From Phoronis australis (taxonomy: Eukaryota > Animalia > Phoronida), in contig NMRA01000657.1 of NCBI GenBank assembly GCA_002633005.1, forward strand, positions 38,342 through 102,341: a DNA stretch of 64,000 nucleotides. The letters run 5' to 3'. The notes under the pieces were generated by a model. That model saw only the letters and a program-made list of their open reading frames with translations, ran no database searches and was not told the origin of the DNA. The translations under genes and the position numbers were made by a program. This document shows positions 100-40,675 of this stretch, in pieces (the first letter of the stretch is position 1; each line of letters starts with the position of its first letter).

Positions 100-231
100 T
101 TTCATCACCACCGCCATCACAGAGGTTGCAGGTTTTGGTACAATTCTCCGCCATATACTCCATGTACTGTACATTTGTACAGTAGCCTTTCGCAGCCAAT
201 TCCTCACAGTCTGAGCTGCTGTCCGTGCAAG
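100..231 (-). CDS. ShKT exon CTDSSSDCEELAAKGYCTNVQYMEYMAENCTKTCNLCDGGGDE
   Basis: tgcag| acceptor, |GTGTGT donor, 132 nt, phase 1-1. Confidence 0.83.
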
Positions 232-3200
232 CTGCATATTAGAAAAAGATTGAGTGAAAATTGTTCATGACGACATTTCATTTAAAACGAATGTTTTATT
301 CACTAAATCTCCATTAGTTTGCTACAAAAATACTATAGCGTCACTTTCAGTTTGAGAATTATGGGACGTTGTTGCCGCACTTCATCATTGACTAAATTTC
401 AAACATTACTACTCTCTGGCATTAAAGTATTTTTGATATGAAAGCTTAAGCCAGAGAAAGCACAATGTTACACTGTGACATTTGCGTAAGCAACAACCTT
501 TCAAAACACATTAAAATCCAAAGAGGTCGCAGGTTTAGGTACACTCCCCAGCCATGTAATCATTGTATAGTTCTTTTGTATAGTAGTCTTTTGTAGCCAC
601 ATCGCTACAGTCTGCTGCTCTCCATGCTATCTGTGTGTTCCAAGAGATTGATTTCCCAAAGAAAGGGAAGGTATTGTATACTAAATCTTACTAAAAAAGT
701 TCTATCGTAAAATATGATATTGCAAATTACATTTCGGGTATGCTGAGAAGAAGTTGTTTGTTCATTTACCAAAAATATAAAATTCGTCCTTAACTTCAAA
801 GAACATTGATCACGCATGAAGGTGTATGTGAAACTGAATACATGAGAGAGGCAAAAGAGAAGATTACAGTAAGATATCGACATAACTAAGGACGTGTGAT
901 TATGCGAAATAATTGAATGGACAAACACACAACTGAACACGAAACCTATTCTGGGTGCAATTAAAGATGTCCCGTGACCCCGCAGTGGCATACATGTTAC
1001 TGACACCAGATAGCATGAATCCCCGCATAGCAACAGTGGGAAGAAAAACAAAGACCGTGCACAGTTTGTCAATTTCAATCGTAATTTTATGTACCCAGAC
1101 CTGAAAAACTAAGGGAATGTGTACTACAAAGTTTGAAAAAGAAAGGAATCAATTTGAAGTAAAACACTTCCATTGTCATCACTGACGCCGCCATCGCAAA
1201 GGTCGCAGGCTTTGGCAAATTTCTCCGCCATGTACTCATTGCATTGTTCATTTGTACAATAGCCTTTTGCAACCATGTCCTCACAGTGTAAGTAAAGATT
1301 AAAGCGAGCCGATTTTGGCAGATGAAGTTTCGGATCGTACTTGTCCCTCAAGAACAATATCTAGTTTAGATGACGGAATTCAGAGAATGATATAATGGCG
1401 GATTAAGACATGAACATATTTAATAAAACATATAAATCGTAGGAGTATCACGAAGCAAACGCAAACTAGATGGAAATATGATATTTTTTGGGAATCCTCC
1501 TGCAGTACCCGAAAAAAATGAGCTGATTAAGTGGCATTTTGGCAACTTGCTGACTGATAATGACTGTGGGGAGTTCCATTTGTCCAAAAGCACACGAAAA
1601 GCAGTGTTTATTTTAGAACACACCATTGATTTCTAGAGCCACCCGATGAAACGACTTGGTGTGACTAATCTTGAACAAAATTGGGATAAATTTTAAGTAA
1701 CCCACTTTCATTGTCACCACCTCCGCCACCATCACAGAGGTCGCAGGATTTGGTACAATTCTCCGCCATGTACTCCTTATGCTCCTCATCCGTACAGTAG
1801 CCTTTTCCTGCTAATTCCTCACAGTCTGTGGCTTGGTCCGTGCAACCTGAAGAATGGAAAGGAATTGAATAAGAATTGTTCTTGATAATGGTTCACTAAT
1901 AAATCGAATATAAGGTGAATGTATCTTACTGCACGTAAAATTGTTTCGATACAAGAATCTAATATTGTTGATTTCAGTGTGGTAATGCTAAGTGAGAGAG
2001 TATTTACTATTTTACTGACCATTTGTTATTTTAAACACCAAGCATTAGTGCAGAAGCAATACGATGTTTGTACAATGGAAATCTATTCTGGATATCCCTC
2101 TGTGATTTTAATGTAGACAATAATATCAGAAAGACACAAAAAATTCGGAAAGTGTAAACTGGCAATATAGTTAAAAACTTGGTTAATGGTAGTCTTGAAA
2201 ATGTTAGATGATTCTCAATTGCAAATTTGCAGTTTAGATACGTGCTACAAGCTACATGTTGCATGAATTATCGCAATCCCGTGTCACGAGTTTGGTGCCC
2301 AAATTTCTCTAGGTGAGCCAGGCGTTCCACTGAGGTGGGAAAGGAAATGGTATGCTCCCCAATGCAGCAAGTTTACCGTACTAAAGCTAATAGGTAAACC
2401 GCAACTGACGTTAAAAAGCGGTTGTCGGTTGCTGAAGTTAATCGCAAAAGGGGACATAATTTAATGTCTGCCAAAACCTTATCTTTTTCGTCTAGACCAA
2501 TGATCCAAACAAAAGTTTCCACATTGAGCTATACCTAAAAGCTTTTGTCTTCAAGCTGCATGAGTGTAGACTAACTACTGCAGATTCATGAATTCAAAAA
2601 AGACAACTAGCCGATTTTGAAGGAAGAATGCAGATTCGTACTCATCAGCAATGAAAATAGCTCTTTCATGTGTTGGAATAACAAAATGATAAAATGGCAG
2701 ATTAGAAATAGGATATCTTCAGTAATCCATTTAGCTTGCTCACCAGGTATGACCAATTTAGATGGAAATATGATGGGGTTAACAGGAGATCCTGCTGCAG
2801 AAGCAGGGGGACTGAGCTAATCGGGTGGCATTCTGGAAACTTGAAGAAAGACAATGGCTGTCCTAAAACACAAGAACTGCTATTATTTTTCAAAGAGACC
2901 AATCAATCCTAGAGTCGACAGATTATGCAACTTTAAAACAAGAGTTTAAAGAAATAGCAATCAATTCCAAATAACCCACTTTCGTTGCCACCACCGCCGC
3001 CGCCATCACATAGGTTGCAGGTTTTGGTGCAATTCTCTGCCATGTACTCCTTATGCTCCTCGTTCGTACAGTAGCCTTTTGCTGCTAAACCCTCACAATC
3101 TGTGGCTTGGTCCGTGCAACCTAAATAATGGAAAAGAATTGAATGAGAATTGTTCTTGACAATCGTTCAATAATAAATCGAATATATCATGAAATTATCT

Positions 3201-6200
3201 TACTGTACGTATATGTACATACGTTTCGATACAAGAATCTAATATTGTTGATTTCAGACTGGGAATGCTAAGTGAATGTTGAGTTTTCTCTATTTTACTG
3301 ACAATTTGTCATTTATTAAACACCAAGCATTAGTGCAGAAGCATTACGATGTTTGTAAAACGGAAGTCTAACCTGGGTATCCCTCTGTGATTTTGGTGTA
3401 GACAATAATTTATAAATAAACATAACTCTTGGAAAGCGTAATCTGACATTCAAGTTAGAAACGTAGATAATGGTAGTTTTGAGAATGCTAGATGATTCTC
3501 AATTGGAAATTTGCAGTTAAGATACATGCTAAAGACTAAACGTATCATAAATTTTCGCAATCCTTATATTTTTCGTAAAAATTAATGATCAAAACAATAA
3601 TTTCAACATGGAGTTGTCCCGACAAGCATTTGGCATCAAGCTGTATGCGTGAATTCTAAAAATTGCAGCTTCATGTATTCAAAGAAAAAAACTAGCCGAT
3701 TTTGAAGGAAGAAGTGGAGATTCGTACTCATTGAGTAATGAAAAATAGCTATTTCATACGATGGTATAACACATGATCTATAAGCAGATTAGAAAATGAA
3801 TATCTTGAGTAATCCGCGTGGCTGGTTCATCAACGATAAACAATTTAGATGTAAATATAATGGGGTTTATAGGAGATCCTGCAGCAGGAGCAGGGGAAAA
3901 GAGCTAATCGGGTGGCATTCGGTAAACTTGAAGACTGACAATGGCTGTCCTAAAACACATGAACTGCTGTGTTAATTTCAAAGAGACCACTCTCTTCTTA
4001 AGTCGACAGATTAACCGACTCATAACTATATTTGAGAGAAATAGGAATCAATTCCAAGTAACTCACTTTCGTTTCCACCACCGCCGCCGCCATCGCATAG
4101 GTTGCAGGTTTTGGTGCAATTCTCCGCCATGTACTCCTTATGCTCCTCATTCGTACAGAAGCCTTTTGCTGCTAAATCCTCACAGTCTGTGGCTTGGTCC
4201 GTACAACCTGAATAATGGAAAGGAATTGAATGACAATTGTTCTTGACAATGGTTCACTAATAAATCGAATATAATGTGAATTTATCTTACTGAACGTAAA
4301 ATTGTTTCGATACAAGAATCAAATATTGTTGATTTCAGTGTGGTCATGCTAAGTGATACAGTATTTACTATTTTACTGACAATTTGTCATTTTAAACACC
4401 AAGCATTAGTGCAGAAGCAATACGATGTTTGTACAATGGAATTCTATTTTGGATATCGTCTGTTATTTTAGTGTAGACAATAATATCAGAAAGACATATA
4501 AATTTCGGAAAGTATAATCTGGCAATAGAGTTAAAAACTTGGTTAATGGTAGTCTTGAAAATGTTAGATGATTCTCAATTGCAAATTTACAGTTTAGATA
4601 CATGCTACAAGCTACACGTTGCAAGAATTATCGCAATCCAGTGTCACGAGTTTGGTGCCCAAATTTCTTTAGGTGAGCCAAGCGTTCCACTGGGGTGGGA
4701 AAGGAAATGGTATGCTCCCCAATGCAGCAAGTTTACCGTATTAAAGCTAATAGGTAAACCGCAACTGACGTTAAAAGGCGGTTGTCGGTTGCGGAAGTTG
4801 ATCGCAAAAGGGGACATAATTTAATGTCTGCAAAATCTTATCTTTTTCGTCTAGACCAATGATCCAAACAAAAGTTTCCACATTGAGCTATTCCTAAAAG
4901 CATTTGTCATCAAGCTGTATGAGTGTAGTCTAAAAATTGCAGATTCATGAATTCAAAAAAGACAACTAGCCGATTTTGAAGGAAGAATGCAGATTCGTAC
5001 TCATCAGCAATGAAAATAGCTCTTTCATGTGTTGGAATAACAAAATGATAAAATGGCATATTAGAAATAGGATATCTTCAGTAATCCACTTAGCTTGCTC
5101 ACCAGGTAGCCCAAATTAGATGGAGATATGATGGGGTTAACAGGAGATCCTGCTGCAGAAGCAGGGGGACTGAGCTAATCGGGTGGCATTCTGGAAACTT
5201 GAAGAAAGACAATGGCTGTCCTAAAACACAAGAACTGCTGTTATTTTTCAAAGAGACCAATCAATCCTAGAGTCGACAGATTATACAACTTTAAAACAAG
5301 AATTTAATGAAATAGCAATCAATTCCAAATAACCCACTTTCGTTGCCACCACCGCCGCCGCCATCACATAGGTTGCAGGTTTTGGTGCAATTCTTTGCCA
5401 TGTGCTCCTTATGCTCTTCAATCGTACAGTAGCCTTTTGCTGCTAAATCCTCACAGTCTGTGGCTTGGTCCGTACAACCTGAATAATGGAAAGGAATTGA
5501 ATGACAATTTGTCTTGACAACGGTTCAATAATAAATCGAATATATCATGAAATTATCTTACTGTAGGTACAAACGTTTCGATACAAGAATCTAATATTGT
5601 TGATTCCAGAATGGGAATGCTATGTGAATGTTGAGTTTTCACTATTTTACTGACAATTTGTCATTTATTAAACACCAAGCATTAAGTGCAGAAGCATTAC
5701 GATGTTTGTAAAATGGAAGTCTAACCCGGATATCCGTCTGTGAATTTGGTGTAGACAATAATTTATAAATAAACGTAAATCTTGGAAAGTGTAATCTGAC
5801 ATTCAAGTTAGAAACGTAGATAATGGTAGTTTTGAAAATGCTAGGTGATTCTTAATTGGAAATTTGCAGCTAAGATACATGCTAAAGACTAAACGTATCA
5901 AGAATTTTCGCAATCCCTATATTTTTCGTAAAAATTAATGATCAAAACAATAATTTCAACACGAAGTTGTCCCGACAAGCATTTGGCATTAAGCTGTGTG
6001 CGTGAATTCTAAAAATTGCAGCTTCATGTATTCAAAGAAAATAACTAGCCGATTTTGAAGGAAGAAGTGGAGATTCGTACTCATTGAGTAATAAAAAATA
6101 TCTATTTCATACGATGTTATAACACATGATCTATAAGCAGATTAGAAAATGAATATCTTGAGTAATCCACGTGGCTGGTTCACCAAGGATAAACAATTTA

Positions 6201-40612: not shown

Positions 40613-40643
40613 ATCTGCAGAGAAGCCTGTCTTGCGCTTCTGC

Positions 40644-40675
40644 AACTGGTTGTTTATTTTTACTCAGTATTTATA
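40644..40675 (-). promoter_or_regulatory. Core promoter: TATA box (TATAAATA, 40675-40668) and Inr-like CCAGTT (40649-40644)
   Basis: The TATA box starts 28 nt upstream of the Inr adenine (40647), which lies 35 nt upstream of the ATG. Confidence 0.65.

What the first reader, a model, noticed from the sequence alone, without database searches (positions are those of the whole stretch)
100..40675. Secreted poly-ShK gene built one domain per symmetric exon: a possible combinatorial cassette system
Seen: promoter, signal peptide and >=20 intact exons, each encoding one ShKT domain and all phase 1-1, so any subset can be skipped in frame. Known: ShKT domains occur in anemone Kv-channel toxins and in many secreted invertebrate proteins. 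Inference: the locus makes either a >900-aa ShK polymer or a family of isoforms by exon skipping or mutually exclusive choice from one promoter and signal peptide. The sequence cannot tell these apart, and novelty is unverified.
Basis: partly seen in the sequence, partly recalled or inferred. Interest (0 to 1): 0.85.

Follow-up and report, generated by a model that had tools for sequence, protein, structure and literature searches.

The report
Secreted chain of 21+ ShK domains
This is a real, expressed animal gene with one small ShK-type domain per exon (20 intact exons here, and RNA shows at least one more beyond the window); the RNA joins the exons that can be told apart in genomic order, so it likely makes one long secreted, acidic chain of domains, a known kind of protein, rather than a mix-and-match library of toxin variants.

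Summary
On the minus strand lie a TATA box, two leader exons and 20 intact ShK exons, all phase 1-1 (Pfam 20 of 20), plus three decayed copies.

RNA supports the gene model and argues against a cassette. Every listed joint between distinguishable exons links neighbours: E1-E2-ShK1-2-3-4, 5-6-7, 19-20-(21, outside the window). Summed depth on the eight near-identical array exons is about 9-12 times single-exon depth; mutually exclusive choice predicts about 1. No docking/selector pairing was found. Minor skipping is not excluded, because coverage is thin and array joints cannot be assigned.

The array grew by tandem duplication, most recently of a 2.36-kb two-exon unit, under purifying selection (pN/pS 0.19-0.31). 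One RNA source carries an exon copy the window lacks. The later domains are acidic, 18 of 20 lack the Lys-Tyr dyad, and the linkers have no dibasic sites, so a toxin polyprotein is unlikely.

Class 1-1 symmetry is the norm for extracellular modules, and proteins with 11-44 ShK domains exist in other invertebrates. The C-terminus is unknown. New member of a known kind; interest 0.27.

The parts
40668..40675 (-). TATA box (TATAAATA), 28 nt upstream of a CAGT initiator-like site near 40647; the start site is inferred
   Evidence: sequence; no RNA start peak listed here
40559..40612 (-). Exon 1 CDS: hydrophobic core of a predicted signal peptide, phase-0 donor
   Evidence: RNA joint to exon 2
39240..39300 (-). 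Exon 2: end of the predicted signal peptide plus a 13-residue spacer, phase 0 to 1
   Evidence: joint 40561/39302; loose ends to ShK1
32540..32668 (-). ShK exon 1
   Evidence: X4 loose ends link it to exon 2 and ShK2
31766..31879 (-). ShK exon 2
   Evidence: joint to ShK3
29669..29782 (-). ShK exon 3
   Evidence: joints 2-3 and 3-4 (loose end, 5 X2 reads + X4)
27007..27120 (-). ShK exon 4
26537..26665 (-). ShK exon 5
   Evidence: joint 5-6 (X1 2, X2 6 reads, X4)
26048..26170 (-). ShK exon 6
   Evidence: joint 6-7
21414..21545 (-). ShK exon 7, first of the acidic Gly-linker type; an X4 contig shows two exon-7-type copies in a row
18263..18403 (-). ShK exon 8 (not inside either laid stretch)
   Evidence: the 8-9 link is only inferred from an X4 joint
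13484..13624 (-). ShK exon 9
13023..13173 (-). Decayed ShK exon copy (frameshifted near its 5' end, no matching donor)
12391..12531 (-). ShK exon 10
2980..11269 (-). Young array, ShK exons 11-18 (11269-11129, 10186-10046, 8917-8777, 7837-7697, 6560-6420, 5478-5338, 4207-4067, 3120-2980), 141 nt each, 2-13 nt apart in sequence; introns alternate between two classes (about 943 and 1130 nt), a 2.36-kb two-exon repeat
   Evidence: RNA depth
1706..1846 (-). ShK exon 19
   Evidence: joint 19-20 (X1 2 reads, X4)
1184..1289 (-). Decayed ShK copy, 5' part missing; spliced out in the 19-20 joint
519..646 (-). Decayed ShK copy with stops; spliced out in the 19-20 joint
100..231 (-). ShK exon 20; its donor joins a further ShK exon outside the window
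   Evidence: X4 contig 1 and 1 X2 read

Best explanation
The gene is transcribed and its distinguishable ShK exons are spliced to their neighbours in order, so it likely makes one long secreted beads-on-a-string protein of at least 21 disulfide-bonded ShK domains, predicted to stay uncut and to work as a multivalent extracellular binder or scaffold rather than as a potassium-channel toxin. Shown: exon anatomy, expression, neighbour joints for 8 links among distinguishable exons, a two-exon duplication unit, purifying selection and three dead exon copies. Inferred, on history: each domain sits in a class 1-1 exon, so unequal crossing-over in introns adds or removes exons in frame. Early rounds gave divergent exons 1-7, later rounds exons 8-10 and 19-20, and the latest the 2.36-kb repeat (exons 11-18). 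Copies that lose splice sites or frame are simply spliced out. Length probably differs between haplotypes. Inferred, on the protein: after signal-peptide removal, the acidic domains (C1-C6 charge -1 to -7 for exons 7-20) are joined by Gly-rich linkers with N-glycosylation sequons and no dibasic sites, giving a glycosylated polyanionic chain for mucus or matrix. The ligand is not identified, and a different C-terminal domain beyond the window is possible (about 40%, judged from relatives).
For:: neighbour joints E1-E2, E2-ShK1, 1-2, 2-3, 3-4, 5-6, 6-7 and 19-20, plus 20 to a further ShK exon. There are 23 raw reads (X1 7, X2 16) on five of these links and no listed raw-read skip between distinguishable exons. 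Reads on the ShK exons have the first mate on + almost throughout, which in the usual stranded library means minus-strand RNA; summed depth on exons 11-18 is 21 (X1) and 32 (X2; about 30 after removing a bin holding mis-laid ShK3 reads), against a single-copy exon mean of 1.7 and 3.6. That is 2.7 and about 4 per array exon; pN/pS 0.19-0.31, no dibasic site in 20 of 20 linkers, an N-x-S/T sequon across 10 of 19 junctions and inside 15 of 20 exons, and Lys-Tyr at the dyad position in 2 of 20; two intron classes (100/100 support), 92-96% alike within class for most pairs and about 82% between classes; comparable proteins in a sea spider (44 ShK), a crinoid, a snail, an annelid and abalone (signal peptide + 5 ShK with Gly-rich linkers). 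Literature passages: class 1-1 modules are the rule (PMC8001218); two-domain units are the commonest repeat-expansion unit (PMC1553488).
Against: Coverage is thin: 43 and 49 reads were laid on 1-13900 in X1 and X2. A joint is listed only from 3 reads in a run or from a contig, and hid 20 further joints and 767 loose ends, so minor skipped forms could be missed. Links 4-5, 7-8 and those inside exons 10-18 were not seen unambiguously. Array depth may be raised by exons beyond the window or by extra copies in the sequenced animals, and the two lays used different likeness cut-offs (90, 88). RefSeq models of other multi-ShK genes include isoforms lacking whole domains (Haliotis X3 lacks 1 of 5, Antedon X3 2 of 14). 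A missing dyad does not rule out channel activity (PMC6409789, discussion part 1 read). No protein-level evidence exists for secretion, glycosylation or lack of cleavage.
Confidence: 0.72

Rival explanations
1. A full-length chain is made, but regulated in-frame skipping of blocks of exons yields a real family of shorter isoforms.
For: All exons are phase 1-1. Many donors are weak (GTGGGT in 7, GTCAGT, GTGTGT and GTTAGT once each). Joints inside the array, such as 7835-7695 'goes back 141' (6 reads) and 1844-7695 (X4), cannot be assigned. Domain-lacking isoforms are annotated in Haliotis and Antedon.
Against: No skip joint is listed between distinguishable exons. Array exons are as deeply covered per copy as single-copy exons. 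The array domains are 91-99% alike in DNA and under purifying selection, so skipping would change length more than specificity. The odd joints fit neighbours or haplotype variants: tails of exons 13-18 differ by 1-5 of 79 nt, and reads carry letters found in no window exon.
Confidence: 0.17
2. The chain is a toxin or defence polyprotein that is cut into single ShK peptides which block potassium channels.
For: ShK fold: Pfam 20 of 20; model pLDDT 81.7 whose best Foldseek matches are ShK-like nematode peptides (prob 0.91-0.96, E 0.6-0.9). A predicted signal peptide. Multi-ShK secreted proteins occur in vampire-snail salivary glands (PMC6409789).
Against: No dibasic sites in 20 of 20 linkers, and exons 2-4 have only a one-residue spacer between domains. 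The dyad is absent in 18 of 20. Domains 7-20 are acidic, against a median charge of 0 in 971 domains of relatives, of which 136 are at -4 or below. There is purifying rather than diversifying selection.
Confidence: 0.08
3. A Dscam-like mutually exclusive cassette: each mRNA takes one ShK exon behind the shared signal peptide.
For: A tandem array of similar symmetric exons behind one promoter.
Against: ShK exons are joined to each other (1-2-3-4, 5-6-7, 19-20-21). Summed array depth is about 9-12 times single-exon depth. The best shared 12-mer complement covers 2-3 of 13 upstream regions, and 33 and 10 of 50 shuffles reach that. Introns of at least 341 nt give no steric exclusion.
Confidence: 0.03

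Closest known systems
ShK-only multi-domain secreted proteins, e.g. Haliotis rufescens ZK643.6-like XP_048247515.1 (P0166), Cumia multiShKL (PMC6409789), C. elegans MUL-1 family (PMC13273113)
   Same: Signal peptide followed only by tandem six-Cys ShK domains with short Gly-rich linkers. The abalone protein has the same Cys spacing, two identical repeats and an annotated isoform lacking one unit.
   Different: At least 21 domains here against 3-5. Acidic here, strongly basic in abalone. The C-terminus here is unknown.
Nymphon striatum KAG1661053.1 (P0005), 2578 aa with 42-44 ShK domains
   Same: A very long ShK polymer with blocks of near-identical repeats: 40 of 44 have a partner at 85% or more identity.
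   Different: Basic domains, Thr-rich mucin-like linkers, no signal peptide in the model. Its exon structure was not examined.
Enzyme or matrix proteins with ShK arrays: astacin + 11-16 ShK (Antedon, Babylonia, Owenia, Strongylocentrotus), ShK array + VWA (Tubulanus), ShK + TSP1 (Styela, Phallusia)
   Same: Long ShK arrays in secreted proteins.
   Different: No non-ShK domain is seen in the 931 aa inside the window. One could follow beyond the window edge.
Class 1-1 exon-shuffled extracellular modules and tandem domain-repeat expansion (PMC8001218; PMC1553488)
   Same: One domain per 3n exon with phase-1 introns; expansion by a two-domain unit.
   Different: ShK is not named in PMC8001218 (0 occurrences). 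Here the whole history, with dead copies, is visible in one locus.
Sea-anemone ShK/BgK Kv1 blockers and nematode BmK1/AcK1 (PDB 1bgk, 2mcr, 2md0)
   Same: Six-Cys pattern and two-helix fold.
   Different: Those are single small peptides with a Lys-Tyr dyad in the anemone toxins. Here the domains are chained, mostly acidic, and 18 of 20 lack the dyad.
Dscam1-type mutually exclusive exon clusters
   Same: A tandem array of duplicated symmetric exons.
   Different: The exons are joined to each other, and no docking/selector pairing was found.

Membership tests
ShKT/ShK domain superfamily (Pfam PF01549) | Six cysteines in ShK spacing scoring above the curated cut-off | tested here: met
   20 of 20 exons, 32.9-48.7 bits against 20.9; six Cys each
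ShKT/ShK domain superfamily (Pfam PF01549) | Compact two-helix fold | tested here: met
   Model of exon 15: helices 8-13 and 20-29, pLDDT 81.7. The top 4 of 7 Foldseek rows are ShK-like peptides, rmsd 1.2-2.3 A; none reaches E 0.001, the query being short.
Secreted multi-ShKT proteins (multiShKL / MUL-1 type) | N-terminal signal peptide | tested here: inconclusive
   A hydrophobic 18-aa exon 1 plus the start of exon 2. No signal-peptide predictor was available.
Secreted multi-ShKT proteins (multiShKL / MUL-1 type) | Several ShK domains on one mRNA | tested here: met
   ShK-ShK joints in RNA
Secreted multi-ShKT proteins (multiShKL / MUL-1 type) | No other domain (ShK-only) | not testable with these tools
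   The gene runs off the window, no genome is held, and RNA reaches only one exon further.
ShK-type Kv-channel toxins | Lys-Tyr dyad before the fourth cysteine | tested here: not met
   Present in 2 of 20 in the register of PDB 2mcr and 0 of 20 in the register HMMER gives for BgK
ShK-type Kv-channel toxins | Release as a single-domain peptide (dibasic processing sites; recalled feature) | tested here: not met
   No K/R pair in 20 of 20 linkers. Other proteases cannot be excluded.
ShK-type Kv-channel toxins | Measured channel block | not testable with these tools
   Needs electrophysiology
Mutually exclusive exon cassettes (Dscam1-type) | Only one exon of the cluster per mRNA | tested here: not met
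   Neighbour joints and summed depth about 9-12 times single-exon depth
Mutually exclusive exon cassettes (Dscam1-type) | Docking/selector RNA complementarity | tested here: not met
   No excess over shuffles, and no inverted repeat between array introns. Only the intron after exon 2 was tried as docking site, with 12-mers and 1 mismatch.
Class 1-1 exon-duplicated modular proteins | Domain borders match exon borders; introns phase 1 on both sides; 3n length | tested here: met
   20 of 20; several borders confirmed by RNA

The most novel reading that the evidence does not exclude
The locus is an accordion gene. Exon copies are gained, lost and converted fast enough that each animal carries ShK chains of its own length and make-up, possibly extended by regulated skipping within the young array. 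This would give an individual-specific polyanionic ShK lattice with a role in recognition (gamete, self/non-self or microbe binding). The hints are an extra exon-7-type copy in X4, array reads with letters found in no window exon, three dead copies, and exons 11 and 12 grouping together across intron classes (92/96). Purifying selection argues against diversified specificity.
Probability: 0.12. Interest if true: 0.6.

Novelty: new member of a known kind. Interest (0 to 1): 0.27.

Why it matters
It is a clean, expressed example of an ShK array expanding exon by exon, with young two-exon repeats, dead copies and probable length differences between animals. It is among the longest ShK chains seen here: only 3 of 153 retrieved relatives have more than 20 ShK patterns. 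It is unusual in being acidic, so it is a fair test case for what non-toxin ShK polymers do. It is not a new diversity-generating splicing system, which was the reason for the high first score.

Tried and rejected
- No genome is held for the window, so the C-terminus could not be read.
- A homologue search with exon 15 among longer proteins gave 6 candidates and none scored. The profile search gave 4 distant hits. No close orthologue was found.
- The metagenome scan gave 2 distant loci of about 1 kb, not read further.
- The run search listed no RNA holder by index. The runs came by species label and were judged only by what the lays showed.
- X3 gave no reads on this gene's ShK exons; its 5 reads on 1-13900 look like a paralogue. 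I draw no tissue conclusion.
- Non-neighbour joints were examined and not accepted as skips. 230-12417 is the same 396-nt contig that fits ShK6-7, mis-laid at 88%. 12531-100 is exon 20 to an exon outside the window. 13624-13484 most likely is exon 8 to 9 (exon 8 was outside the stretch). 1844-7695, 7835-6418 and 7835-7695 fall among exons too alike to assign.
- The docking/selector search was negative.
- Positive selection was not found.
- One search used exon ends one base short (a coordinate slip), so its length-mod-3 and donor columns are wrong; one search corrects them.
- A Pfam scan of 118 of the 154 long open frames (the rest were ShK-exon frames, repeat copies or tandem-repeat frames) found no second domain for this gene.
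- Paper searches listed no description of a 20-exon one-ShK-per-exon gene or of mutually exclusive ShK exons. The library lacks most subscription journals and no supplements were read, so this is weak evidence.
- Earlier scan notes had nothing on this locus or sequence.
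Full report
Observation. A six-frame scan found a run of ShK-type cysteine patterns on the minus strand from 32.7 kb to the left edge of the window. Twenty copies are intact exons. Each has AG two bases before the first cysteine codon, a phase-1 GT donor, a length of 114-141 nt divisible by three, six cysteines and no stop. All 20 pass Pfam's ShK cut-off. Upstream are a TATA box at 40675-40668, an 18-codon hydrophobic exon (40612-40559) and a 61-nt exon (39300-39240) that moves the phase from 0 to 1. 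The coding sequence inside the window adds up to 931 aa. A DNA profile found three further, decayed copies at 13173-13023, 1289-1184 and 646-519.

The gene is expressed and the model holds. No genome is held. Four runs of the same species label were available, three of raw RNA reads and one of contigs. I laid all four on 21000-40900 and on 1-13900. Joints or loose ends show exon 1 to exon 2 (X1 2 reads, X2 2, X4), exon 2 to ShK1 and ShK1 to ShK2 (X4), ShK2-3 (X2 2, X4), ShK3-4 (X2 5, X4), ShK5-6 (X1 2, X2 6, X4), ShK6-7 (X1 1, X2 1, X4) and ShK19-20 (X1 2, X4). The 19-20 joint splices out both decayed copies between them. An X4 contig and one X2 read carry exon 20 into another ShK exon that is not in the window, so there are at least 21 domains and the C-terminus is unknown. 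X4 is only guessed to be RNA, but its contigs cross exon-exon joints. X3 has no reads on these exons.

Cassette or chain. Mutual exclusion predicts no ShK-ShK joints and a summed depth over the cluster equal to one exon's depth. Both predictions fail. Summed depth on exons 11-18 is 21 (X1) and 32 (X2; about 30 without one bin that holds mis-laid ShK3 reads), against 1.7 and 3.6 for six single-copy exons, or 2.7 and about 4 per array exon. A search for a docking site complementary to elements upstream of 13 representative exons gave nothing beyond shuffles. Against over-reading this: only 43 and 49 reads were laid on 1-13900, and joints need 3 reads or a contig to be listed. Twenty joints were hidden, and the two lays used cut-offs of 90 and 88. 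Exons beyond the window may add to array depth. Exons 13-18 differ by only 1-5 of their last 79 nt, while the reads carry letters found in no window exon, so joints inside the array cannot be assigned. Minor in-frame skipping is therefore open. RefSeq models in abalone and a crinoid list isoforms lacking whole ShK units, which makes some skipping plausible and also unremarkable.

How the array grew. Self-comparison shows 1.45-12.5 kb to be a tandem array, 88-91% identical at offsets of 2.36 kb and multiples. Introns alternate between classes of about 943 and 1130 nt, mostly 92-96% alike within a class and about 82% between classes, and they form two fully supported clades. The last duplications therefore copied two exons at a time, which PMC1553488 (passages read) reports as the commonest unit of repeat expansion. 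Exons do not follow the intron classes: 11 and 12 group together (92/96), which suggests local gene conversion (inference). pN/pS is 0.19-0.31 in all five groupings of the twelve 141-nt exons, so the copies are kept alike, not diversified. An X4 contig shows two exon-7-type copies in a row, with 4 and 0 differences from the window. The simplest reading is an extra exon in that animal's haplotype; an assembly loop is not excluded. Transposon fragments (DUF1759, THAP) sit in the longer introns. Phase 1-1 symmetry is the standard form of shuffled extracellular modules (PMC8001218, passages read), so it is the precondition for this growth and no special sign of alternative splicing.

What the protein probably does. 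A model of exon 15 has the two ShK helices (pLDDT 81.7). Its best fold matches are ShK-like nematode and anemone peptides, with weak E-values as expected for 46 residues. In the register of PDB 2mcr, a Lys-Tyr pair stands before the fourth cysteine in 2 of 20 domains. Domains 7-20 carry net charges of -1 to -7, against a median of 0 among 971 domains in retrieved relatives. No linker has a dibasic site. N-x-S/T sequons occur inside 15 of 20 exons and across 10 of 19 junctions. These features fit an uncut, glycosylated, polyanionic chain in mucus or matrix that binds by avidity; this step is inference, and no ligand is identified. Papers support non-toxin roles for dyad-less ShK domains (limpet mucus and Toxocara mucins, PMC7333891, passages; C. 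elegans MUL-1 as a proposed redox buffer, PMC13273113, passages). They also warn that a missing dyad does not exclude channel activity (PMC6409789, passages and discussion part 1 of 2).

Comparison with what is known. A profile search found 3798 proteins at E 0.001 or better. Among the 153 retrieved, 10 have ten or more ShK patterns and 3 have more than 20. Named examples are a sea-spider protein with 42-44 domains, astacins with 12-16 in Antedon, Babylonia, Owenia and Strongylocentrotus, and ShK arrays ahead of VWA or TSP1 domains. The nearest architecture is an abalone protein with a signal peptide, five ShK domains of the same spacing and Gly-rich linkers. Near-identical young repeats also occur in 9 of 71 relatives with six or more domains. 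Of 17 top relatives scanned, about 6 are ShK-only and 11 carry another domain, so a different C-terminal domain here remains possible. No close orthologue was found. An unchecked note on the same genome suggests a mollusc; I did not test this. Seven paper searches listed no account of such a gene's exon structure, but the library is incomplete and no supplements were read.

Verdict. A real, expressed poly-ShK gene built by tandem duplication of class 1-1 exons and, where testable, spliced in order. It is a new member of a known kind. Confidence: constitutive chain 0.72, substantial regulated skipping 0.17, toxin polyprotein 0.08, mutually exclusive cassette 0.03. Interest 0.27. The boldest reading still open, an individual-specific accordion gene used in recognition, has probability about 0.12 and would merit 0.6.

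Noticed in passing
window 54909-55027, minus strand: A single ShK exon with a phase-1 acceptor ending in a stop codon (Pfam 41.6 bits), basic and unlike the array. It is likely the last exon of a separate upstream gene whose other exons were not identified in 55-64 kb. No RNA was laid there.
   Followed up: partly
reads laid at window 13544-13582: Five reads each in X1 and X3 run on into a different ShK-coding sequence, so at least one related ShK gene is expressed elsewhere in this species.
   Followed up: no
window 14150-14734 (+): A DUF1759 open frame (E 3.7e-21), typical of BEL/Pao retroelements (family link recalled), in the intron between ShK8 and ShK9.
   Followed up: no
window 18733-19242 and 28417-28713 (+): THAP-domain fragments, probably DNA-transposon remnants. 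15169-16291 and 28683-29313 share 72-76% identity, and the latter attracts many repeat-derived RNA reads.
   Followed up: no
window 33156-33459 and 55202-55504: A 304-nt repeat at 93% identity, heavily covered by reads from other loci; a likely young interspersed element.
   Followed up: no
window 60417-60823: A palindromic stretch (70% self-inverted), possibly a MITE. Inverted similarity also links 40989-41413 with 52938-53633.
   Followed up: no
window 37305-37465, 38382-38488, 52494-52804: Minisatellites with periods of 20, 21 and 56-86 nt.
   Followed up: no
window 12993-13456: X2 has some read depth (0.78) over the bin holding the decayed copy at 13173-13023. These may be mis-laid exon-8 reads or an intact allele in that animal.
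   Followed up: no
window 63656-64000: An open frame of 115 aa running off the right edge, read on +, with no Pfam hit.
   Followed up: no
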